Source: Candidatus Woesearchaeota archaeon (GTDB lineage Archaea; Nanobdellota; Nanobdellia; Pacearchaeales; GW2011-AR1). From it: a DNA stretch of 26,866 nucleotides. Shown piece after piece: positions 7,366 through 17,237 of this stretch (position 1 is the first letter of the stretch; every line of letters starts with the position of its first letter). The stretch lies in assembly GCA_964528865.1 (NCBI GenBank), contig CAZGTS010000001.1, forward strand, positions 1 to 26,866, in the 5' to 3' direction. The position numbers and the translations under genes were made by a program. The notes beneath the pieces are model-generated. The model saw nothing but the letters and a program-made list of their open reading frames with translations, made no database searches and was not told the DNA's origin.

Positions 7366-7992
7366 ATGGTAAAAAGTAACATCAAAGATGTTTCATGTTT
7401 TCCTCATTCTTCAGAAAAAAGAGTTTCTATTTATATTGATGGTGCTAATTTTTATGGCGGGCTAACTTCACTTAATAAAAATTTTAGTGATTTGAATTTT
7501 GATTTTGAAAATTATATAAGATATTTATGTAAGCAAAATAAAGTAGTTAAAATATATTATTATAATGCTCATGTAAAAAAGAAGATAAACGATAAAATAT
7601 GGGCTAAACAAAAAAAGCTATTTGATAGATTGCACAAAATTCCTAAATGCAAGGTTAGTTTATGCACAAGAAAATCTCGTTTGAATATTTTAGGAGAAGA
7701 ATATCACACGATTAAGGGAGATGATATTTATTTAGCTTTAGATATGATTGAAGATTGTTATAATAATAAATATGATAAGGTAATTTTATTTTCGGGAGAT
7801 GGAGATTTTACAGAATTATTAAAACGAGTTAAGAAAAAAGAAAAAGAAGTTGAGGTCTGTTATTTTAGAAATTGCTCCTCAAAAGTTTTATTGAATCAAG
7901 CAAATAAAATTCATTTGATTAATAAGAAAATTACAAATAAGTTTTTTTATAGGGTAAAGAAAGTTAAGGAAAACTTTCTAATATCTCTTTAA
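7366..7992 (+). CDS. NYN-domain (LabA/DUF88, PIN-like) ribonuclease
   Basis: IYIDGANFY, KGDDIYLALDM and LFSGDGDF acidic motifs; 3' end overlaps the convergent lipase gene by 29 nt. Confidence 0.9.
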   Translation: MVKSNIKDVSCFPHSSEKRVSIYIDGANFYGGLTSLNKNFSDLNFDFENYIRYLCKQNKVVKIYYYNAHVKKKINDKIWAKQKKLFDRLHKIPKCKVSLCTRKSRLNILGEEYHTIKGDDIYLALDMIEDCYNNKYDKVILFSGDGDFTELLKRVKKKEKEVEVCYFRNCSSKVLLNQANKIHLINKKITNKFFYRVKKVKENFLISL

Positions 7993-9267
7993 CTTTTGAA
8001 TAAACTTTTGGAACTTTTGAAGGATGAATTAAATTTTGATGAAAAGTATCTATCCAATCAACCTTATTTCCAGTAAGAATAATATTTTCTGCTCCGTCTA
8101 AAGTCGCACTATCAACAGAAACAACCTCGTCATCAGAAGTTCCATCTGTTCCTTCACAACAATTTCCAATAATAGAATAATATTCAACATTTCCATAAGT
8201 TTCGTCATTAGAATTTAAATTAATCACAAAATCAGATTCATGCCACATCTCCCCACATTCTTCTCCCGAATGCCCCTCCTTAAATAAAGGAATTCCTGTT
8301 TGGCATAAAGTGGAAAGTAATCCTCCAACTCCAACAACATAAGCACTCTCTTTTCCATCAACCCCGTGATGAGGTGTCCCAATTGTTATTAATGTGTAAA
8401 CATCATCTGCTCCGCCTGAATTTTTTATATAAGAACGAGAAACCAAACCCCCATTGAATGAGCAACAAGTATTACTTTATTTTTTCCAGTGTGATGTTTT
8501 ACAATTTCAACCACAGTACTTAATCTTTCACCATACTCTTGAATTGATTTTTCATCTTCACTATTAATAGTAAAATCATCCGCTTCAACTTCTCCTTTAT
8601 AATAAGTCATTCTAACTGAAATTGGTTTTTCTAATTTGCCCCACAGTCCTTCACTAATTTCGTTTTCATCTGAATTTGGATTAATTACTCCTTTATCTTC
8701 CACTAATCCGTCTCCATCTAATTCCTCCTGCATTTCTGTAAACGCATTTATACTATAAGCAGTTGTTTCTTTATTATCAACGCTATGTCCATGAACAAAA
8801 ATAATTGGATAATTTTCATCTGAAGTATCTGCTTCTAAATTATAAACACATTGTTCTGTTTCTTCGTCGCAATAACCTGCTTCACATTTACAATCATTTG
8901 GAGAATTAAAACAATTCTCTTCTTTTTCTATTTCACAAATTCCGTTTTCACATTCACTAAAACTACAATCCTTCCAACAAGCAGAATTGCACTCGCCAAA
9001 ATTACAAACATTATCTCCACAAAAAAAATCTGCTCCGCAACTTCCACAATCTAAAGAACATTCTAAACAATCTTCTTCAATTTGGCAATAGCCATCGCCA
9101 CACCAATCACAATCTAATTTACAAGAACCAATTTCATCTTCAATACATTTTCCATCACCACAAAATTTCACATTTCCAGGATTAACCAAAATAAGATTTA
9201 TAATAATCGTTAAAACAACAATAATTAAAATTCCTCCAACAAGTTTCTCTAAAAAAGAAAAGTTCAT
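7964..9267 (-). pseudogene. Membrane-anchored Cys-rich alpha/beta hydrolase (lipase/esterase), frameshifted at the nucleophile elbow
   Basis: ORF 8425-9267 ends AHSMGVWF and ORF 7964-8446 continues VSRSYI. One extra C in the C5 run (8448-8452) restores AHSMGGLVSRSYI and a 434-aa protein with FVHGH, TIGTPHHG, DEVV and FH motifs. Confidence 0.85.
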
Positions 9268-10254
9268 TTTTTATCTTTATCCAATTGTTTTTTAACAAGA
9301 TTAATTATTTTCTTCTGTTCTTTTTTATTAAACACAAACTTAAAAAATAAATAACCTCCAACAAAAAGAATAATTGCTCCAATGGCAAAGTAACTTACTT
9401 TTTTTTGTTTAGAAGAAAATGATTCCAAACCTTTATCAATAGCTTCTTGCGTTTGACTTGCTATCTGCTCATTTAATTCTTCATTTTCACAAACTCCACA
9501 ATCTTCATCACAAGATTGACAATTTTCATTCTTATTACATTCTCCGTCGCCACACCATTTACAATCTGCTTTACAAATTCCTCTTTCTAATTCTTCACAT
9601 TGTCCATTACCGCAATAAGTTTCACAAACACCCGAAGAACCACATCTTTCATAAGCCCCACAACTGCAATCATCTACAGAATTTTTACAATTTTCTCCTT
9701 CTCCAGAATCACAAAATCCATCCTTTTCCTTATAGGGTTTATTCCAACAAATTTCATGAATACAATATTTTCCTTCGCATTCATTTCCTTGAATACAAGA
9801 TTCTAAATTACATTTTCCAACATCTTCTGGACAACCCAAACAAGTTTCATGTTCAGATTCAATTTCATTATTTCCACAATAAGTTGTTGTAAAAGATATT
9901 TGTTTCTGTTTCTGTTTCTTGGGTTTGACAAAAAACACCTAGACCTTCACAGATTACACTTAATTCTTTATCATAATAGCCATTACTTCCTGCAAGAACT
10001 GGAAAAGAAAATTCTACGGAATTCCCATTAATTAATTCTTCTACAAAAGTTTCACTTTCTCCTGCATGATACCAAGTACATTTTATATTACAGATATTAC
10101 TTGAAGGAGAATAAATTTCTGCTTTTACAGTCGCGGTTTCTCCTTCATATAAATCATTAGGAAGATTATTTCCCCCCTCAATTGTAAAATCAAAAGCACT
10201 AACTAAAGATACAGAAAAACAAAAAATGATTAGTAATATTAACAACTTTTTCAT
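9264..10254 (-). pseudogene. Cys-rich type I membrane protein split by a frameshift near 9868-9938
   Basis: The upstream ORF has a signal peptide but no anchor; the downstream ORF has CGDGxC-type repeats and a C-terminal TM but no signal peptide. The frames overlap across an A6 run (9930-9935) and a (GAAACA)x3 repeat; removing 1 nt joins them. Confidence 0.7.
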
Positions 10255-10326: not shown

Positions 10327-11613
10327 TCATTTATCTTTAGATTTCTTTTTATCTGGTTTATTCTGTTGGTAATTTTTCCGAACAACATAGTTCACTGGAT
10401 TTTTTATCATCTTGCAAAAATTGTCTGGTTGGCAAACGCCGATTCCTTCATAGAATTCTTTACAGTTTTGGGGCATAATTGGTTTTCTTGCATAGCTCCA
10501 AGAAAGTTGGGATGTTATGTAACCTTGCGTTAAAGGAGAGGCATTTTTTTTATTCCATTCTTCAATTTTCTTTTCAAGTTCTTCCTTGTCCATTCCAATA
10601 GAACGGAACAAATTTATCAAAACAAACAATGCTCTTTTTTTCCCATCTACAAGTCCCTTTAATATATTCTGCACACAAGGAGGAAAATTTTCTTCAGACA
10701 AGTTGTCCAGTTTGATTGGTTTGAAATTTGCATATTTTCCTTTTATTTTTTCTTTGTCTTCTCCTGATTCAATTTCATTTTGCTTTGCCCAATCAAGTGC
10801 TTGCATTAAAAGTTCAGAGGCTTCTCCTTCTTTAGAGTCTGGCATAAAGTTCTTAATTTTTATTTTCATCGGGTCTGCATCTTTTGGCTGGAATTTAGAA
10901 ATTTTTTCTGGGTCTAAAACAACACTTGCTAATGCTGTTTTCTCGTGGAGAGAATAAGGCATTCTAAATAAATGCCGAGAGGAAACTAAAACCAAATCAG
11001 GCATTACTTCTTTTGGGGCTTGGAAATCTTTTACATATTTGTTTGGTCTTTCCAAGTCGCTGATTTTTTCAATTAACTGGGCTTTTGTTTTTTCCATAAT
11101 GTATTGGGTTATAATTCTTGGATATTTAGGGAACATTGTTGAAGTTTTTATCTCATTGATTTCTTTTGGGAAAGCTTTCCATGGAACAATTATGTGAAAT
11201 CCTTTTGAACCTGAAAATTTAATTCCGATGTTTTTTACTCCGTGAAATTTTAATATTTGAATTATTACTTCTGCAGAAATTTTTGAATAATCAATGTATT
11301 TGCTGTCAATGTCAATTATTAAATCCCAGCCAGTTCGCAGTTCATTTGTCTGTTGGGGGTTCATGCCTGTTACAATGTTTAAAGGTTCTTGCCAAATTTC
11401 TTCTGAACAATGAAAAGATGTTGCACCTTTTTTAACTAACTCTAAAATGTCTCCAATATACTGAAATATATCTGGGCGTTTTCCAAAACCTTCAAAATAC
11501 CTTGGGCAAATTTCTCTATTTTTTGAGAATTCAAAAATTGCTTTTTGAACTTCTGGTTTAGAATAATATATATGAATTATATTTTTTATTCTTTTTTCTT
11601 TGTGTGAAAGCAT
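10327..11613 (-). CDS. priS: DNA primase, fused catalytic (PriS) and Fe-S (PriL C-terminal) domains
   Basis: AEP motifs DLIIDID, FSGSKGFH and RMPYSLHEKT, then a PriL-CTD-like FPPC...C...C...C cluster in one 428-aa chain. Confidence 0.9.
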   Translation of the reverse strand: MLSHKEKRIKNIIHIYYSKPEVQKAIFEFSKNREICPRYFEGFGKRPDIFQYIGDILELVKKGATSFHCSEEIWQEPLNIVTGMNPQQTNELRTGWDLIIDIDSKYIDYSKISAEVIIQILKFHGVKNIGIKFSGSKGFHIIVPWKAFPKEINEIKTSTMFPKYPRIITQYIMEKTKAQLIEKISDLERPNKYVKDFQAPKEVMPDLVLVSSRHLFRMPYSLHEKTALASVVLDPEKISKFQPKDADPMKIKIKNFMPDSKEGEASELLMQALDWAKQNEIESGEDKEKIKGKYANFKPIKLDNLSEENFPPCVQNILKGLVDGKKRALFVLINLFRSIGMDKEELEKKIEEWNKKNASPLTQGYITSQLSWSYARKPIMPQNCKEFYEGIGVCQPDNFCKMIKNPVNYVVRKNYQQNKPDKKKSKDK

Positions 11614-11696: not shown

Positions 11697-12422
11697 ATGT
11701 TAGTTAAATTGGAAAATCCTGCTTTATTGTCAAAGGCGATTGATATTATTTCGGAGCTTGTTACTGACGCGAGAATTAAGGTGAATGAGTTTGGAATGAG
11801 TATTACTGCTATTGACCCTGCGAATGTTGCGATGGTTGGATTTAGGTTGCCGAAGAGTGCTTTTTCTCAGTTTGAGACCGGTAATGAGGTTTTAGGTGTT
11901 AACTTAGATAATCTGAAAAAAATTTTGAAAAGATGCGGAGTTGGAAGTTCGTTGATTTTAGAAAAAAAAGAGAATCAATTAGAAATTAAAATTTATGACA
12001 AAATCAGGAGAAATTTTAGTTTGAATTTAATTGAAATTGAAAGCGAAGATAAGGAAATGCCAAGTTTGGATTTTAGTTCGCGGGTTGAGATGTTGTCGAA
12101 TTATTTTATCGAGGCTGTTGAAGATTGTGCGGTTGTTGATGATGCGTGTTCGTTTATTATTGAAGACGGTAAATTCATAATTAACGCGAAAAGTTTGAAT
12201 TCTGCGCGTTCTGAATTTTCAAGTGACGAGGTGAAAATTGAAGCTGAAAATTGCAAGTCAAGATATAGTTTAGAATATTTGCAAAAATTTTCTAAAGGAG
12301 CCAAACTTTGCGATAAGACAATTTTGAATTTTGCAAACGAGCATCCGTTGAAGATAGAATTTAAGGCTGAACATTTTGATTTGAGTTTTATTCTTGCTCC
12401 ACGCGTTGAGACCGAGGATTAG
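11697..12422 (+). CDS. pcn: DNA polymerase sliding clamp PCNA
   Basis: AIDPANVAMV, GVNLDNLKKILK, SRYSLEYL and HPLKIEF...FILAPR match archaeal PCNA; TTTAAAAG 29 nt upstream. Confidence 0.97.
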   Translation: MLVKLENPALLSKAIDIISELVTDARIKVNEFGMSITAIDPANVAMVGFRLPKSAFSQFETGNEVLGVNLDNLKKILKRCGVGSSLILEKKENQLEIKIYDKIRRNFSLNLIEIESEDKEMPSLDFSSRVEMLSNYFIEAVEDCAVVDDACSFIIEDGKFIINAKSLNSARSEFSSDEVKIEAENCKSRYSLEYLQKFSKGAKLCDKTILNFANEHPLKIEFKAEHFDLSFILAPRVETED

Positions 12423-12453
12423 CGATTTAAATATCTAAAGCATTAATGAAAAT

Positions 12454-12587
12454 CGCTTGTCCGAGTTGAGGATTAACGCGAAGGAGAAATTAAATATATT
12501 AATACCGAGAGTTAGTCCGAGTTGAGAACTAGCACGAGAGAAGCAGTATAATCCAGTGACGAGTGCTGGGCTGAGTTGAAGATTAGC
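12454..12587 (+). repeat. Array of three hairpins with an invariant GAGTTGA loop at 54-56 nt period
   Basis: Loops at 12463-12469, 12519-12525 and 12573-12579, each closed by a different but complementary stem; a fourth degenerate half-unit overlaps the PCNA stop. Confidence 0.7.
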
Positions 12588-12647
12588 TCCTTTGGCAAAT
12601 ATTTATATTATCAAAAAGATTATAAGCATAAATGTTTTGGTGTGTTT

Positions 12648-13484
12648 ATGAATAGAGATAAAAAATCAAAAATTTTTTATCCCGCTCGCTCGCCCAGGCG
12701 TGGTCGAACGAAAGAGGGACAAGTAACTATTTTTATAATTATTGGTATATTATTCATTACAGCAATTATGCTTTTTTTCTTTCTTAGAGAAGACCTTCTT
12801 CCTGGAACAGGAGGAAAATCAGAAGAAAATCCTGGAGGGTTTTTAGAAATTTGTATAGAAGACAAATTAATAGAAGGAACTAAATTGATTTCTTCACAGG
12901 GAGGGTACATTGAAAATCCTCTTAACAGAACTTTTAAGTTTAGTGATGAAAATGATTTTACCGATATTTCTTATTTGTGTTATAATCAAAATAATTATTT
13001 CTCTTGCATAAACCAAGAACCAATGTTAATACAACATTTGAAAGCAGAAGTAAAAACATATGTTTTTGATGATGTTCGGACTTGTTTTGATAATTTAGTT
13101 TTAAGTTTAGGTAAAAGGGGTTATGTTGTTGATGCAACGTATAATGGATTTGAAATTGAGTTTGCGACAAAAAAAATTATTATTGATATTGACGGAAAAA
13201 TTATTTTAACAAAATCTGATGAGACTACAAGACAGGAAAATCTTAAAATAATTTTTCCGAGCAGGTTCTATGATTTGGCTGGCGTTGTGCAAGAAATAGT
13301 TAGTCAAGAAGCAAGGTTTTGTAATTTTGAGAATTTGGGATTTATGGCATTTTATCCTAAGTTTAATATAGAAAGATTTAGAATAGGGGATGGAACAATA
13401 ATTTATACTGTTAAACATTTGGAGACTCAAGAAGAATTTAAATTTGCCATAAGAGGTTGCATTATACCTCCAAAAATATTTTAA
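12648..13484 (+). CDS. Class III signal-peptide (archaeal pilin-like) protein, 278 aa (start revised from TTG 12576)
   Basis: ..KEG/QVTIFIIIGILFITAIMLFFF; TATA-like ATTATAAG at 12619 is 29 nt before ATG 12648; paralog of 17322-18092. Confidence 0.8.
   Translation: MNRDKKSKIFYPARSPRRGRTKEGQVTIFIIIGILFITAIMLFFFLREDLLPGTGGKSEENPGGFLEICIEDKLIEGTKLISSQGGYIENPLNRTFKFSDENDFTDISYLCYNQNNYFSCINQEPMLIQHLKAEVKTYVFDDVRTCFDNLVLSLGKRGYVVDATYNGFEIEFATKKIIIDIDGKIILTKSDETTRQENLKIIFPSRFYDLAGVVQEIVSQEARFCNFENLGFMAFYPKFNIERFRIGDGTIIYTVKHLETQEEFKFAIRGCIIPPKIF
12683..12711. repeat. REP-like hairpin copy 1 (in the prepilin leader-coding region)
   Basis: CGCTCGCTC-GCCCAGGCGT-GGTCGAACGA; the last 20 nt match 26515-26534 at 19/20. 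Confidence 0.75.
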
Positions 13485-13496
13485 TTTAAACAAACA

Positions 13497-16400
13497 ATGA
13501 AAAAAGCAAATACTAAAAAAATAGAAATTATTTCATTAATAATAGTTATTTTACAAATATTTTTGTTAATGAATTTAGTTTCCTCAAATAGTTATCTTAT
13601 TCATCAAGCTGATAAGTCTTTAGAAAATTTAAACACTATTGATGAGGAAAAAAGTTTTAACAATTTGATTAACTCTGGGTTGAATTTATTAAGTGGTATT
13701 TTGTCTATAAAACAAATAGGAATTGTTTCTGCAGAAGTGTCAGAAGTTCCTCAATATTGTTGTTCTAAATCTAATGGAGAAGATGTCTGTTCAGATACCT
13801 CTGACCCTTTTTCTCCTTGTGATGTTCCAATACTCAGTGGAACTTGTGAACAAAATAATTGTATGAAATGTTGTCCTGAAACTAATGAAGGAGAATTTTG
13901 TAAAGATGTTTCAATGCTTTTTGAAGATTGTGCTAGACCATTAATTGATGGAAATTGTCTTGATATTGATTGTATAAGCTGTTGTCCAAAGACAATTGAA
14001 GAAGAATTTTGTAAAGATGTTTCTAAATTTCATCAAGATATTTGTTCAGATGAATATCCTTTATATTCAACGAATTGCCAAGCAATTAATTGTAGAAAAG
14101 TAGTTTTAAATGATCCTAATATACCTCCACAAGATCCTTTAGATTTAGATATTAGTTGGAATTGCTGTTCTGAGTTGGAAGATGGTTCTATTTGTCAAGA
14201 CATTGCTTCAATTACTCCTGAACTTTGTTCTGTTTCGCCTTTACCAACAAAATGTGAAGATACTGTAAATTGTAAACTTGGATGTTGTATTGATGAAGAA
14301 GAAGGTTTATGTGCAACAAAAGCTTCTAAACAAAAATGTGAAGAAGGTGGGGGAGAATGGGATAATGATTTCAATTGCTTGATTCAGGAATGTCAAAAAG
14401 GATGCTGTGTTTTAGGAAATAATGCGGAATTTGTTACAGAAACAAGATGTGACAAACTTTCAATATCTTGGGGTTTTGAAAAAGATTTCAAAGAATATTT
14501 AAAAACAGAAATTCAATGTCTTGCTCTTGTTGCTAATACTTCTACAGAATCTTGTATTGGTAATAATTGTGTAACTCCAGAAAAAAAAGATTGCATTGAT
14601 GAAAAAGGAGATGTAAAAAAAGACGGGGAAAGTTGGTGTTCTTATGAAGGCTATATTGGTGATGGAAAAGACACTGTTGGTAGCAGGCACTGGAAACAAT
14701 CTTGTGTTGATGGTGAAATTGTAAATGAAGGGTGCCAAGATTATAGAGGATATATTTGTGCTCAAACAATAATGGAAGAAGGCTCATTAAAATTTTCTAT
14801 GGCTTCCTGTGTTCCTAATGAAGCAATTTTATGTTTAGGATATAATAGTGACCAAGCAACTATGGGGGAAAATTGTAATGAAAATAAACATTGTATGATT
14901 AAAAACATTTATGTTGATTCATATTTTAAGTTTGATGTTTGTGTTGGAAGGTATCCTCCAGGAATTAAAGATTACTGTTCAATGGCTAGCCAGACATGCA
15001 CTGTGATATATGTGAAGGATTGGAAAGGAAGTTGGAAATGTGAAAAAAACTGTAATTGTGAAAGACAAGTATTCCCAGAACAAATGAATAATTTGTGTAT
15101 TTCTATGGGAGATTGTGGTAGTTATATTAATTATATTGGAAATGGGACAGATAATATAAAAGTTACAAATGCTCCAATGATTTCTTGGAAAAATTATAAA
15201 AATTATGTGAACTTAGTAGCAGGGCAATTTGTAGAACCGCAAGACATAGATAAATTTTTATCTTCTTTAACAGGAACAAGTACAACTCTTCCTGGAGAAG
15301 AACCTGATGGTTTTAATAAAGGTGTTAAATTTTTAGGACAGATTATAGGAGCAGCAGGTAGTTTAGTTAGTGCGAGTATGTTTCTAGGATCAATGGTTCC
15401 ATCGATGTCAATTGTAGTTTCACCAGGTGTTTATGCAGGTCTTAGCGCATTTTCAGGAGCAGCAGCTGGAGCAGCAATTGGTGCAATGGCAGGAGCATAT
15501 CTTGCAAAAGCTCTTGGAATATCAGGAATTGCTGCAACTGTTATGATGGTTGCAGGAGCAGTCGCAGGAGCTGTTATCGGAGCATGGGCGGTAGGAATGG
15601 CAATTCCAGTGGTAGGTTGGGTAATTGCCATAATAGCAGTACTAATTATGATTTATATTGCGCTTATTGGTTGGGGAAAAACAAAAGAAATAAAAGTTAA
15701 ATTTGAATGCATGCCTTGGGAAGCTCCTGTTGGAGGAAGTGATTGTGAAAGATGTCATGAAGATGATTCAAAACCTTGCACAAAATATAAATGTGAAAGT
15801 CTTGGGCAAACATGTAAATTATTAAATGAAAATGAAGAAAACCCGATTTGTGAAAGTATAGCTCATGAATCAAATCCTCCAGTGATTTCTGCAGGAGATA
15901 TTTTTAATTATACTCATCTATTAAATAATCCATTAAATCCCTTTAAGATTGATTTTAATTATAAATTCCAGAAGGAAAAAACAAAATATGTAGAATTAAA
16001 ACAAAGTAATGGGAAATGTATTCAAGAATTCACGCCTATCTTGTTTAATTTAAATACAGATGAGTTTGCTCAATGCAAATATAGTTTTCAAAAAACCAGC
16101 CTATTTGAAGAAATGGAAGAATATCCTCTTGAACAAACTAAATTTGGAATAAACCACACTTTTAAATTTAAAATGCCAAGTTTAAGTCACTTAGAGGTTT
16201 ACAATATTAGTGAAGACTTAAAAGAAAGTTTTGGAAACTTGAACATGTATGTAAGATGCCAAGACTATCAGGGGAATTTTAATATAAATGAATATATAGT
16301 AAACTTCTGCATTAATTCAGAACCAGACACAACTGCTGTTAATCATGAGTTTACAATTACAAATCCTAAAAACAAATATTTTTTGAAATATGGAACAACA

Positions 16401-17237
16401 CAACAGGACATGAAGATGCGGATAAACGAACCAGCAGAATGTAAGTATGATATTATCCCAGGAATAGATTATGATGCTATGATAAATTCAATGACATGCA
16501 ACTGGATGTCTGAAGAAGAAGATAATTGGTTATGCAATACAACTTTAAGTGTAAGTGGTGGAGAAAATAAATTTTATATTAAATGCAGAGATAAACCTTG
16601 GTTTGATTATCTTGAGACAGATGAAGAAAGAGAAAAATACAAAGGACGAAATACTAATGTCAATGATTTTATTTATACTTTACATGTAACAGATAAAGAA
16701 TTAATAATAGATTCAATTACTCCTAAAGGAACTTTGGAATTTGGGTTTGAACCAGTTTCTGTTGATTTGGAAGTCAAAACTTCTGGCGGAGTAGATAATG
16801 GAAATTCTAAATGCTCTTATCAGTGGGCAGGAAATTGGATTCAGTTCTTGAGTACTTTTTCAAATTCGCATACTCAGCCAGGAGTAAATTTAATGAGTGG
16901 GAATTTTAATACTCCAATAAAGTGTGAAGATGATGTAGAAAATGTTGTTTATGGAAATGCCGTGTTCAAAATAGAAGTGGATTCAGAACCTCCAATTGCG
17001 GTGAGGGTTTTTTATGAAGGAGGTGACCTTAAATTAATTACAGATGAAGAAGCAAAATGTTATTATGATTTTAATAGTTGTGATTTTAATCTTATTAATG
17101 GAAGTTCTATGTCTTCTTCACTTTCAATAGAGCATTCTGCAAAATGGAGTGTAGGACAAACGCATTATATAAAATGCGAAGATTTTTGGGGAAACACAAA
17201 TCCAACTTGTGCAATTAAAGTAGAACCAAGTAATTAA
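13497..17237 (+). CDS. Giant secreted/membrane Cys-rich protein with a central Gly/Ala-rich hydrophobic region and C-terminal FN3/Ig-like repeats
   Basis: N-terminal hydrophobic signal, many CC/CxxC motifs, a ~119-aa hydrophobic Gly-zipper stretch (aa 609-727) and repeated (T/I)(N/D)E.A.CK(Y) beta-sandwich-like motifs. Confidence 0.8.
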   Translation: MKKANTKKIEIISLIIVILQIFLLMNLVSSNSYLIHQADKSLENLNTIDEEKSFNNLINSGLNLLSGILSIKQIGIVSAEVSEVPQYCCSKSNGEDVCSDTSDPFSPCDVPILSGTCEQNNCMKCCPETNEGEFCKDVSMLFEDCARPLIDGNCLDIDCISCCPKTIEEEFCKDVSKFHQDICSDEYPLYSTNCQAINCRKVVLNDPNIPPQDPLDLDISWNCCSELEDGSICQDIASITPELCSVSPLPTKCEDTVNCKLGCCIDEEEGLCATKASKQKCEEGGGEWDNDFNCLIQECQKGCCVLGNNAEFVTETRCDKLSISWGFEKDFKEYLKTEIQCLALVANTSTESCIGNNCVTPEKKDCIDEKGDVKKDGESWCSYEGYIGDGKDTVGSRHWKQSCVDGEIVNEGCQDYRGYICAQTIMEEGSLKFSMASCVPNEAILCLGYNSDQATMGENCNENKHCMIKNIYVDSYFKFDVCVGRYPPGIKDYCSMASQTCTVIYVKDWKGSWKCEKNCNCERQVFPEQMNNLCISMGDCGSYINYIGNGTDNIKVTNAPMISWKNYKNYVNLVAGQFVEPQDIDKFLSSLTGTSTTLPGEEPDGFNKGVKFLGQIIGAAGSLVSASMFLGSMVPSMSIVVSPGVYAGLSAFSGAAAGAAIGAMAGAYLAKALGISGIAATVMMVAGAVAGAVIGAWAVGMAIPVVGWVIAIIAVLIMIYIALIGWGKTKEIKVKFECMPWEAPVGGSDCERCHEDDSKPCTKYKCESLGQTCKLLNENEENPICESIAHESNPPVISAGDIFNYTHLLNNPLNPFKIDFNYKFQKEKTKYVELKQSNGKCIQEFTPILFNLNTDEFAQCKYSFQKTSLFEEMEEYPLEQTKFGINHTFKFKMPSLSHLEVYNISEDLKESFGNLNMYVRCQDYQGNFNINEYIVNFCINSEPDTTAVNHEFTITNPKNKYFLKYGTTQQDMKMRINEPAECKYDIIPGIDYDAMINSMTCNWMSEEEDNWLCNTTLSVSGGENKFYIKCRDKPWFDYLETDEEREKYKGRNTNVNDFIYTLHVTDKELIIDSITPKGTLEFGFEPVSVDLEVKTSGGVDNGNSKCSYQWAGNWIQFLSTFSNSHTQPGVNLMSGNFNTPIKCEDDVENVVYGNAVFKIEVDSEPPIAVRVFYEGGDLKLITDEEAKCYYDFNSCDFNLINGSSMSSSLSIEHSAKWSVGQTHYIKCEDFWGNTNPTCAIKVEPSN

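What the first reader, a model, noticed from the sequence alone, without database searches (positions are those of the whole stretch)
12417..12590. Three covarying hairpins with an identical GAGUUGA loop, evenly spaced downstream of PCNA
R1: GUCC[GAGUUGA]GGAU; R2: GUUAGUCC[GAGUUGA]GAACUAGC; R3: GCUGGGCU[GAGUUGA]AGAUUAGC. Loops are identical, stems differ but stay paired (C-G closing pair becomes U-A in R3), the period is 54-56 nt and the ~30-nt spacers are unrelated. Arms can also pair across units (12417-12428 with 12450-12461; 12471-12477 with 12511-12517; 12529-12535 with 12563-12569), giving two mutually exclusive folds. A TTTAAATA at 12426 predicts a start at ~12455, the first base of R1. 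Candidates are a multi-site protein-binding sRNA, a switchable PCNA 3' UTR, or a degenerate CRISPR-like array.
Basis: partly seen in the sequence, partly recalled or inferred. Interest (0 to 1): 0.7.

Follow-up and report, generated by a model that had tools for sequence, protein, structure and literature searches.

The report
Hairpin repeat array behind archaeal PCNA
Directly after the PCNA gene of a tiny DPANN archaeon sit three tandem ~55-base hairpin units that recur, in 0 to 5 copies, at exactly this spot in many related genomes and nowhere else, most likely forming a structured tail on the PCNA messenger RNA whose function is untested.

Summary
The repeat is real: three ~55-nt units at 12414-12586, period 56/54, each junction carrying GAGTTGA. 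It is not chance. The same unit family follows the PCNA stop codon in about 30 related Pacearchaeota/Woesearchaeota contigs, in 0-5 copies. It was found nowhere else in 495 kb of related DNA or among AT-rich metagenome hits.

Covariation, RNAalifold and folding energies all support the cross-unit long hairpins: 13-bp stems closed by invariant G.A/A.G pairs. The first stem contains the last three pcn codons and the stop codon. The GAGUUGA-loop hairpins are the junctions between these helices. Their complementarity is conserved but shows no covariation.

The spacers are not unrelated. They define three unit types (A, C, B in the window) whose interiors are 80-97% identical between genomes with saturated synonymous sites. 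A CRISPR-like array is rejected. A generic REP element is rejected. An independent promoter is not conserved.

Best reading (confidence about 0.45): a cis-acting structured 3' UTR of pcn mRNA, born by tandem duplication of the gene's 3' end. It is dispensable, since the closest relative has none, yet it is under selection. No transcript data exist, so function remains inferred.

The parts
11697..12422 (+). pcn gene (PCNA, 241 aa). Its last 9 nt (GA GGATTAG, 12414-12422) form the 5' foot of hairpin 1.
   Evidence: Pfam PCNA_N 5e-16 and PCNA_C 7e-8. There are 52 orthologous loci. The C-terminus ...LAPRVETED* is conserved.
12414..12464 (+). Unit 1 (type A), long hairpin 1. Parts: GA; 5' arm GGATTAGCGATTT (12416-12428, includes stop codon TAG at 12420-12422); 21-nt loop (12429-12449); 3' arm AAATCGCTTGTCC (12450-12462); GA.
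   Evidence: Inverted repeat I1. It is the minimum-free-energy structure at -13.3 kcal/mol, z-score -2.36. Covariation appears as GCGATTT/AAATCGC, GTGATTT/AAATCAC, GCAATTT/AAATTGC and GTAATTT/AAATTAC. Covariance-model hit 12410-12479, 74.9 bits, E 1.5e-16.
12463..12469 (+). Junction heptamer 1, GAGTTGA.
   Evidence: The flanking GA dinucleotides are invariant in 35/35 and 34/35 units. Heptamer variants in the family: GAGTAGA 14, GAGTTGA 10, others 11.
12468..12520 (+). Unit 2 (type C), long hairpin 2. Parts: GA; GGATTAAC (12470-12477); interior 12478-12510; GTTAGTCC (12511-12518); GA.
   Evidence: It is the minimum-free-energy structure at -10.8 kcal/mol, z-score -2.22. Its interior is 80% identical to L056/L080 unit 2, although PCNA synonymous third positions are only 47% identical.
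12519..12525 (+). Junction heptamer 2, GAGTTGA.
12524..12574 (+). Unit 3 (type B), long hairpin 3. Parts: GA; GAACTAGCAC (12526-12535); an inner CGAG/CGAG tandem G.A motif; loop with TAATCC; GTGCTGGGCT (12563-12572); GA.
   Evidence: -10.7 kcal/mol, though the z-score is only -0.10. Covariance-model hit 12520-12589, 56.5 bits, E 1.3e-11. The interior matches L006 unit 2 at 32 of 33 positions.
12573..12586 (+). Junction heptamer 3 (GAGTTGA) plus a terminal orphan 5'-arm heptamer AGATTAG. The heptamer is a copy of the pcn end with no 3' partner.
   Evidence: A GRAYTAR heptamer follows the last junction in most arrays. It can pair only in the alternative short-hairpin register.
12587..12613 (+). 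A 27-nt stretch between the array and the next gene's promoter, of unknown origin. The closest relative L001 lacks it, together with the whole array.
   Evidence: In L001 the pcn stop is followed directly by AAAATATTATAAGCATAAATG, which corresponds to window 12614-12634.
12614..12650 (+). Native promoter region (ATTATAAG-type TATA box) and ATG (12648) of the next gene, which has a pilin-like class III signal-peptide N-terminus. It marks the 3' limit of the element. The loop of unit 1 is 75% similar to it.
   Evidence: Direct repeat D3: 12429-12448 against 12615-12634, 75% identical. Synteny with L001, L003, L018 and L039.

Best explanation
The region is a tandem array of three paralogous hairpin modules (types A, C, B). 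It belongs to a family found only in the 3' flank of the pcn (PCNA) gene of Pacearchaeota/Woesearchaeota-type DPANN archaea.

Anatomy (shown):
- Each module is a stem of about 13 bp whose outer 7 bp are GGAUUAR paired with CUWGUCY.
- The stem is closed at its foot by invariant G.A/A.G pairs and has a type-specific interior.
- Modules are joined by the heptamer GAGUWGA.
- The 5' arm of the first stem is the end of the pcn reading frame itself (GA-G GAU UAG). The stop codon therefore sits inside helix 1.

Origin (inferred from sequence similarity): tandem duplication of the last ~30 nt of pcn plus the adjacent intergenic DNA. The alignment is CTTGCTCCAAGAGTTGAGACCGAGGATTAG against CTTG-TCC--GAGTTGAG------GATTAG.

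How it works (inferred, not shown): the array is transcribed as the 3' untranslated tail of pcn mRNA and folds on the + strand into a chain of hairpins. Such a chain would most plausibly protect or define the mRNA 3' end. It would also present repeated G.A-flanked sites, resembling box C/D or K-loop motifs, to an RNA-binding protein such as L7Ae.

Because all 5' arms resemble each other, each 3' arm can also pair with the next 5' arm. A ribosome terminating on the stop codon would favour this register.

The array is dispensable and its copy number changes quickly.
For: 1. Locus specificity. A core profile and covariance model R1, run over 333-495 kb of related loci on both strands, hit only the first ~400 nt after the pcn stop, always on the pcn strand. 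A metagenome-wide scan with the 20-nt core found 19 hits on DPANN-like contigs, GC 0.24 in the one measured, L057 (18 with PCNA directly upstream plus L057, the distal part of the L077 array). All 19 are PCNA-linked. The other 17 metagenome hits are unrelated coding DNA with GC 0.31-0.57.
2. Helix support. The long stem is 84.8% paired against 71.2% in shuffles (0 of 500). It has 66 doubly changed cells against 28, and slid controls give 22-39%. RNAalifold predicts it independently.
3. Strand. Summed long-hairpin energies are -34.8 kcal/mol on the + strand and -22.3 on the - strand. Stems hold 61 G.U against 9 A.C pairs.
4. Selection reaches into the ORF. In unit-bearing genomes the last pcn codons are ACC GAG GAT TAG. 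A third-base C occurs in 18/20 unit-bearing against 6/38 unit-less genomes (Fisher 4e-8). TAG occurs in 15/20 against 9/38 (2e-4), and GAG in 12/20 against 7/38 (0.003). These bases make the C-G, G-Y and G-C pairs of helix 1.
5. Conservation. Unit interiors are 80-97% identical where PCNA synonymous third positions are 45-63% identical and pcn-upstream intergenic DNA is 50-60% identical.
6. Duplication origin. L038 carries an intact 45-nt second copy of the pcn 3' end. L069, L065 and L084 have near-identical tandem units; for L069, Tandem Repeats Finder gives 3.0 copies at 99%.
7. Paired change between close relatives. L056 and L067 unit 2 differ by a G>T in one arm together with a G>A in the other. 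It converts the G.A/A.G pair to a U-A pair plus an A.A mismatch, so it is only partly compensatory.
Against: - No transcript evidence exists. No RNA runs hold the window or L077. Groundwater metatranscriptome contigs hold neither L033 nor L019.
- The whole 184-nt region does not fold better than shuffles (z-score -0.86). Unit 3 alone has a z-score of -0.10.
- The G.U excess comes mostly from three conserved stem positions. In the variable positions it is 9 G.U against 7 A.C, so strand-specific selection is not proven.
- Strong conservation of loop interiors is not expected of a simple protective hairpin.
- The closest relative, L001 (90.4% nt identity in pcn), has no array at all. Any function is therefore non-essential.
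- No oligo-T terminator follows the hairpins.
Confidence: 0.45

Rival explanations
1. An independent small RNA, or a set of small RNAs, with its own promoter. It would act as a multi-site protein-binding or sponge RNA in the manner of CsrB/RsmZ, or be processed into ~55-nt hairpin RNAs.
For: The window has a consensus-like TTTAAATA at 12426-12433, preceded by AGCGA. An invariant short motif (GA-GUW-GA) is presented between variable stems in variable copy number. Unit interiors are strongly conserved and fall into three types, as expected of sequence-specific RNA modules.
Against: The TATA-like octamer is not conserved in homologous units: TTTAGCAA, TTTAACAA, TTTGGCAA, TTTAAGTT. Helix 1 needs the pcn coding end as its 5' arm, so a transcript starting at ~12455 could not form it. 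There is no Rfam match, even at E<=10. The array is absent from the closest relative.
Confidence: 0.15
2. A functionless minisatellite. A tandem duplication of the pcn 3' end expands and contracts by slippage or unequal crossing-over. Hairpin potential would be a by-product, or a driver of slippage.
For: Copy number ranges from 0 to 5 and differs between sister genomes. Within-array homogeneity is seen in L069, L065, L084 and L077. L038 has a young duplicate. Rearrangements in the L070/L077/L084 family do not respect unit borders.
Against: Neutral DNA would not stay 80-97% identical across genomes with saturated synonymous sites. It would not show compensatory changes in stems. It would not be accompanied by matching synonymous-codon choices in pcn.
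Confidence: 0.15
3. A DNA-level recombination platform. Each junction (arm, 7-bp GAGTWGA, inverted arm) would be a tyrosine-recombinase-type core site at an attB in the pcn 3' end. The units would be remnants of integrated cassettes, in an integron-like or IMEX-like manner.
For: The junction is an imperfect 7-7-7 palindrome with a near-invariant central heptamer. Unit types occur in different orders in different genomes: A-C-B in the window, A-B in L006, C-A in L028, B-C in L056. In L084 a NYN-domain gene, and in L077 a ParE toxin gene, lie between a 5' arm and a distant 3' arm plus junction. In a circular form, X'(n)-GAGTWGA-X(n) would be a perfect palindrome, which would also explain the covariation.
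Against: No integrase or recombinase is encoded in the 26.9-kb window. Flanks of related loci were examined only in part (ORFs of the L070/L077/L084 family), and no integrase-like ORF was noticed there. Double-stranded circles of 50-55 bp are sterically implausible. Indels in the L070/L077/L084 family do not end at junctions. The pcn 3' end is no more divergent than the rest of the gene between the window and L001. The arms lack the attC consensus RYYYAAC/GTTRRRY. Different orders can also arise by differential loss.
Confidence: 0.12
4. A DNA-level regulatory array for the downstream gene. It would consist of repeated palindromic operators, or duplicated BRE/TATA promoters, spaced about 5 helical turns apart.
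For: The loop of unit 1 is 75% similar to the native promoter of the next gene (repeat D3). The loops are AT-rich and TATA-like. The 54-56 bp period is about 5 helical turns.
Against: Unit length varies from 42 to 67 nt between genomes, so there is no phasing constraint. The downstream gene differs between unit-bearing genomes such as L006, L009, L061 and L069. Covariation between distant arms is not explained by operators.
Confidence: 0.07
5. A degenerate CRISPR-like array.
For: Only the superficial repeat-spacer look and the ~55-nt period.
Against: The repeats are 60-70% identical. The 'spacers' are conserved across species and their ends pair with each other. There are no phage, plasmid or viral matches beyond chance 18-mers. 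No cas genes are present. The array is fixed to the pcn stop codon.
Confidence: 0.01

Closest known systems
Bacterial REP/BIME elements (repetitive extragenic palindromes in 3' intergenic regions)
   Same: Tandem imperfect palindromic units of 35-60 nt lie just downstream of a gene and are transcribed with it. Copy number varies between strains. The proposed role is 3'-end protection of the upstream mRNA.
   Different: REPs are dispersed at hundreds of loci and are mobilised by RAYT transposases. This family is confined to one locus. It is archaeal, its first stem overlaps the stop codon, and it derives from the gene's own 3' end.
Box C/D K-turn and C'/D' K-loop motifs bound by L7Ae (definitions in PMC5539422 and PMC7994747)
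   Same: UWGAGGA ... CYGA at the hairpin foot resembles box C (RUGAUGA) plus box D (CUGA), with the two G.A pairs invariant. The junction CYGA-GUW-GARG reads like a D'-loop-C' K-loop. Unit length matches archaeal C/D sRNAs.
   Different: There is no canonical C helix or 3-nt bulge in the supported fold. The would-be guide regions pair with each other. No D'/C' pair sits inside a unit. There are no Rfam snoRNA hits. L7Ae binding is untested.
CsrB/RsmZ-type multi-hairpin protein-sponge RNAs
   Same: A variable number of stem-loops present a short invariant motif. Copy number differs between relatives.
   Different: Those are independent sRNA genes with their own promoter and terminator, and their stems and loops are poorly conserved. 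Here the first helix is part of an mRNA, the interiors are conserved, and no partner protein is known.
Integron attC arrays / CALINs, including archaeal ones (PMC9668308)
   Same: Arrays of structured, sequence-variable inverted repeats whose pairing rather than sequence is conserved. Accessory genes (toxin, NYN) lie in the same variable region in some relatives.
   Different: There are no R''/R' core sites and no IntI. In the window nothing but 7 nt lies between successive hairpins. Where genes are present they lie inside, not between, the inverted repeats.
Replication-dependent histone mRNA 3' stem-loop (eukaryotes)
   Same: A conserved stem-loop in the 3' UTR of an mRNA for a replication-linked protein.
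   Different: This is purely an analogy. There is no sequence relation, the histone element is a single hairpin, and its binding protein (SLBP) is known.

Membership tests
CRISPR array | Near-identical direct repeats of 23-50 nt | tested here: not met
   Copies are 70% and 60% identical to the first. Tandem Repeats Finder finds no array.
CRISPR array | Unique spacers that differ between strains and match mobile elements | tested here: not met
   Spacer interiors are shared between distant genomes, for example 32/33 and 90%. Their ends are complementary arms. There are no phage or plasmid matches. Viral 18-mer hits do not extend.
CRISPR array | cas genes or a leader nearby | tested here: not met
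   No Cas families among 20 window ORFs.
Box C/D sRNA | Box C RUGAUGA and box D CUGA forming tandem G.A pairs | tested here: inconclusive
   UWGAGGA matches 5 of 7 positions, and CYGA is present. The GA dinucleotides are invariant in 35/35 and 34/35 units.
Box C/D sRNA | Two free ~12-nt guides separated by D'/C' boxes | tested here: not met
   The regions next to the boxes pair with each other in a 13-bp covarying stem. No internal D'/C' pair is seen in the alignment. There are no Rfam hits.
K-turn | Canonical helix, 3-nt bulge, then G.A and A.G pairs | tested here: not met
   In the supported fold the positions outside the G.A pairs give at most one C-G pair (unit 1) or U.G/A.G. No C helix forms.
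K-loop (C'/D' type) | A stem ending in G.A/A.G pairs closed by a short terminal loop, bound by L7Ae | tested here: inconclusive
   The sequence pattern CYGA-GUW-GARG fits and the stem is 74.9% paired. There is no covariation beyond column composition (96 of 500 shuffles reach it). Protein binding is not testable here.
REP/BIME | Many dispersed copies per genome | tested here: not met
   Apart from one weak sub-threshold nhmmer hit (L022, E 4.4, 7.1 bits), all hits in 495 kb of held loci lie after the pcn stop. All AT-rich metagenome hits are PCNA-linked. Whole genomes could not be scanned.
REP/BIME | Imperfect palindromes in a 3' intergenic region, in tandem clusters | tested here: met
Integron cassette array / attC | R''/R' core sites RYYYAAC ... 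GTTRRRY and extrahelical bases | tested here: not met
   The arms are GGATTAR / CTWGTCY.
Integron cassette array / attC | Integron integrase, or genes between successive sites | tested here: not met
   No tyrosine recombinase in the window. Successive hairpins are 7 nt apart.
Type III toxin-antitoxin (ToxI-like repeats) | Near-identical tandem repeats directly upstream of an endoribonuclease toxin gene | tested here: not met
   The downstream gene is a pilin-like membrane protein with no Pfam hit and differs between genomes. The units are diverged.
Known Rfam RNA families | Covariance-model match | tested here: not met
   No hit at gathering threshold in the window. At E<=10 there is only a spurious tsr24 match at 12617-12665. 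No tRNA or tmRNA.

The most novel reading that the evidence does not exclude
The array may be a translation-sensing 'shift-register' RNA.

- Helix 1 contains the pcn stop codon, so every terminating ribosome melts it.
- That frees 3' arm 1 to pair with 5' arm 2, forming the GAGUWGA-loop, K-loop-like hairpin.
- The same shift would then pass down the chain, unit by unit, until the otherwise orphan terminal GGAUUAR heptamer becomes paired.
- The two registers would expose or hide repeated G.A motifs for an L7Ae-type protein or a nuclease. The fate of the mRNA for the replication clamp would thereby be coupled to how actively it is translated.

The conserved orphan heptamer after the last junction and the conserved, non-covarying complementarity of the second register are what this reading explains and the simple-hairpin reading does not.
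Probability: 0.12. Interest if true: 0.85.

Novelty: new variant of a known kind. Interest (0 to 1): 0.6.

Why it matters
Post-transcriptional control in DPANN archaea is almost unexplored, and archaeal 3' UTR elements are rare. This is a sequence family with clear covariation, strict linkage to one essential replication gene, rapid copy-number change and measurable imprint on the gene's synonymous codons.

If it acts on pcn mRNA, it would be a rare example of a structured, locus-specific regulatory or stabilising 3' UTR in Archaea. It would also show how a coding 3' end can seed a new RNA element by tandem duplication. If it instead proves to be a recombination platform, it would mark a new integration hotspot in organisms with very small genomes.

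In either case the covariance model built here gives a practical marker that could be added to RNA family databases and to MAG annotation.

Tried and rejected
- Rfam at gathering threshold and at E<=10 gave nothing. ARAGORN found no tRNA or tmRNA.
- Tandem Repeats Finder missed the window array because it is too diverged.
- A loose regex for the core was uninformative, with hundreds of chance hits. It was replaced by profile and covariance-model searches.
- Whole-region folding z-scores are not significant on either strand.
- RNA evidence: no RNA runs were found for the window or L077. Groundwater metatranscriptome contigs hold neither L033 nor L019.
- DNA runs confirm the array unchanged in salt-lake metagenomes and show no copy-number joints.
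- Protospacer test: there are no phage or plasmid matches. Viral 18-mer matches do not extend.
- No integrase or recombinase is encoded in the window.
- Test for a horizontally replaced pcn 3' end: differences between the window and L001 are spread evenly, about 6 per 60 nt. Rejected.
- The strand-asymmetry test (G.U against A.C) is strong overall but not in the variable positions. It is treated as weak evidence.
- Considered from sequence and dropped because core motifs or spacing do not fit: hammerhead ribozyme, H/ACA sRNA, SECIS or PYLIS-like recoding element, BHB splice site, ORB origin boxes, attC.
- Readthrough of the TAG stop gives RFKYLKH** and is not conserved.
- Literature searches found no description of a PCNA-linked element or PCNA attB in archaea.
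Full report
**Setting.** The window is AT-rich (about 30% GC) archaeal DNA. ORF 11697-12422 (+) is PCNA (Pfam PCNA_N 5e-16, PCNA_C 7e-8). It is transcribed divergently from a fused PriS/PriL primase gene at 10327-11613 (-). It is followed by a gene with a pilin-like class III signal-peptide N-terminus, whose ATG is at 12648. PCNA relatives with 59-95% amino-acid identity come from Pacearchaeota, Woesearchaeota and Nanoarchaeota MAGs. The exact sequence is present in salt-lake metagenomes.

**The observation.** There are three copies of a 40-nt repeat at 12442-12481, 12498-12537 and 12552-12591, spaced 56 and 54 nt apart and 70% and 60% identical to the first. Each carries GAGTTGA between short complementary arms. 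The alternative cross-unit pairings also exist. Inside this window alone the motif count is not significant, Tandem Repeats Finder sees nothing, and the 184-nt region does not fold better than shuffles. The case rests on comparison with relatives.

**Comparative result 1: a family tied to one locus.**
- In 11 of the ~50 species-representative PCNA loci, 1-3 units of the same kind follow the stop codon directly. The consensus junction is CTWGTCY-GAGTWGA-GGATTAR.
- A profile of the junction and covariance model R1 of the whole unit were run over 333-495 kb of held DNA on both strands. They hit only the first few hundred bases after the pcn stop, always on the pcn strand, with E-values down to 1e-17.
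- A scan of 241 million metagenome records with the 20-nt core returned 36 loci. Eighteen have PCNA directly upstream. One more (L057) is the distal part of the PCNA-linked L077 array. The remaining 17 are unrelated DNA, mostly coding, with GC 0.31-0.57 (two copies of one AT-rich stretch at GC 0.31), and are chance matches.

**Comparative result 2: which helices are real.** I extracted 35 non-identical units and aligned them. Gaps fall only in the loop.
- The cross-unit long stem is 84.8% paired against 71.2 +/- 1.3% in column shuffles (0 of 500). It pairs the 13 nt after a GA dinucleotide with the 13 nt before the next GA.
- Its covariation score is 0.482 against 0.240 (0 of 500). It has 66 doubly changed cells against 28. 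Slid controls give 22-39%.
- Typical compensations are GCGATTT/AAATCGC, GTGATTT/AAATCAC, GCAATTT/AAATTGC, GTAATTT/AAATTAC and GCACGAG/CGAGTGC.
- RNAalifold recovers this helix on its own.
It is 74.9% paired, but shuffles give 73.6% (96 of 500 reach it), and its covariation score is 0.273 against 0.248. Its complementarity comes from conserved columns, not from covariation.
- In the window the long hairpins have energies of -13.3, -10.8 and -10.7 kcal/mol, against -8.6, -5.3 and -7.9 for the short ones. The - strand gives -11.4, -5.5 and -5.4.

**Anatomy.** Each unit has the form GA | GGAUUAR-N6 | interior | N6'-CUWGUCY | GA. Units are linked by GUW, so that GA-GUW-GA forms the invariant heptamer.
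- The two GA dinucleotides are present in 35/35 and 34/35 units. They face each other at the foot of the stem as potential sheared G.A/A.G pairs.
- In unit 1 the 5' GA and GGAUUAG are the last codons of pcn (GA-G GAU UAG). The stop codon lies inside helix 1.
- After the last junction an orphan GRAYTAR heptamer remains. In the window this is AGATTAG at 12580-12586.
- The interiors define three types. Type A has GATTTAA... loops, type C has CGCGAAGGAGAAATTAA..., and type B has CACGAG...CGAGTG with an inner tandem G.A motif and often TAATCC. The window order is A-C-B.
- Other genomes have A; B; A-B; B-C; C-A; A-(C); or B-B-B.

**Origin.** The junction plus the end of the 3' arm aligns with the pcn 3' end: CTTGCTCCAAGAGTTGAGACCGAGGATTAG against CTTG-TCC--GAGTTGAG------GATTAG.
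- The pseudo-ends even translate as VRVED*, VRVEN* and G*VED*, compared with PRVETED* for pcn.
- The loop of unit 1 is 75% similar to the native promoter region of the next gene (repeat D3).
- L038 carries an intact 45-nt duplicate of the pcn end about 100 nt after the real stop.
- L069, L065 and L084 show very recent in-place duplications; for L069, Tandem Repeats Finder gives 3.0 copies at 99%.
- I infer that the family arose by tandem duplication of the gene's 3' end plus adjacent intergenic DNA.

**Evidence for selection.**
1. Unit-bearing genomes are scattered over the whole PCNA tree, next to unit-less sisters. The window has 3 units and L001 has 0, at 90.4% nt identity. Despite this, the junction and stem foot are the same everywhere.
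2. Interiors are 80-97% identical where PCNA synonymous third positions are 45-63% identical and pcn-upstream intergenic DNA is 50-60% identical. Examples are window_3/L006_2 at 32 of 33 positions, L021_1/L064_1 at 90% and window_2/L056_2 at 80%.
3. The synonymous sites of the last pcn codons follow the presence of units.
   - ACC-type third-base C: 18/20 against 6/38 (Fisher 4e-8).
   - TAG: 15/20 against 9/38 (2e-4).
   - GAG: 12/20 against 7/38 (0.003).
   - These bases form the pairs C4-G72, G7-Y69 and G13-C63 of helix 1.
   - The counts are not phylogenetically corrected, but the interleaved tree argues for repeated independent changes.
4. The close relatives L056 and L067 differ by a paired double change in unit 2.

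**RNA or DNA?** Three points favour folding of the + strand: it folds better than the - strand, stems contain 61 G.U against 9 A.C pairs, and helix 1 begins inside an mRNA. However, the G.U excess sits mostly at three conserved positions. In the variable positions it is 9 against 7, so this evidence is suggestive only. No transcript data could be found. Unit length varies from 42 to 67 nt between genomes, which argues against a helically phased DNA-binding array.

**Recombination rival.** The junction looks like a 7-7-7 recombinase core site. In the L070/L077/L084 family, accessory genes lie between a 5' arm and a distant 3' arm plus junction: a NYN-domain gene and a ParE toxin gene. Against this:
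- No integrase is encoded in the window, and none was noticed among the ORFs inspected in the L070/L077/L084 loci.
- The indels in that family do not end at junctions.
- Double-stranded circles of 55 bp are implausible.
- The pcn 3' end shows no sign of replacement.

I keep this rival at low probability.

**Known families.** CRISPR, box C/D sRNA, K-turn, REP/BIME, attC and ToxI each fail at least one defining feature that I tested (see Membership tests). The resemblance to box C/D and K-loop motifs is a lead for L7Ae binding, not a classification. It consists of UWGAGGA ... CYGA, and of CYGA-GUW-GARG at the junction (definitions from PMC5539422 and PMC7994747). Literature searches found no prior description.

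**Conclusion.** The finding is real and, as far as Rfam and the searched literature show, undescribed. It is a pcn-anchored tandem hairpin array whose true helices are the cross-unit stems. The best-supported mechanism is a cis-acting structured 3' UTR, at confidence about 0.45. The second register, the G.A motifs and the orphan terminal heptamer leave room for a switch or a ribonucleoprotein platform. Function remains inferred until transcripts are mapped.

Noticed in passing
window 12655-12715: The next gene carries a ~60-nt, partly GC-rich insertion between its start codon and the class III signal-peptide motif (…GQVTIFIIIG). The insertion reads ...TATCCCGCTCGCTCGCCCAGGCGTGGTCGAACGAAAGAGGGAC. 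L001 lacks it (MKRGKKAQVTIF). Other relatives have different GC-rich inserts at the same place (L004, L032, L050, L051, L033). Folding of 12640-12735 is not better than shuffles (z-score -0.36).
   Followed up: partly
window 10327-11613 (-): A single 428-aa ORF combines the DNA primase small-subunit and large-subunit Pfam domains (a PriS-PriL fusion). It is transcribed divergently from pcn across an 83-nt AT-rich spacer that contains a conserved ACAATA-TTTAAAAG promoter motif.
   Followed up: partly
L038 2515-2660: An intact 45-nt duplicate of the pcn 3' end, encoding MEINFILAPRVETED*, lies about 100 nt after the real stop. It looks like a young version of the duplication that seeded the array.
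   Followed up: partly
L028 3745-3800: An (ATT)n microsatellite of about 17 copies sits inside the loop of a type C unit directly after the pcn stop.
   Followed up: no
L077 (- strand) 4310-3730; L084 871-1392; L070 3335-3900: The variable region behind pcn in this family carries small accessory genes between array parts. These are a ParE/RelE-type toxin with a 44-aa antisense ORF, and a NYN-domain nuclease gene. A degenerate junction (CTTGTCCGAGTAGAG-TTAGAT) lies just before the conserved downstream gene.
   Followed up: partly
window 12421 (loose ends in runs X3, X4, X6): Co-occurring relatives in the same salt-lake metagenomes continue after the pcn stop with ACGCGAAGAGAAAC..., which is a type C unit start, instead of the window's type A unit. 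The first unit therefore differs between sympatric strains.
   Followed up: no
window 7366-7992 (+): A NYN-domain gene (Pfam 3e-23) lies 4.4 kb upstream of pcn. A NYN gene also sits inside the pcn-downstream variable region of L084. No link between the two was tested.
   Followed up: no
window 9264-9938 (-), 13497-17237 (+): Large cysteine-rich secreted or membrane proteins without Pfam matches flank the replication genes. The 1246-aa ORF has many CxxC-type motifs.
   Followed up: no
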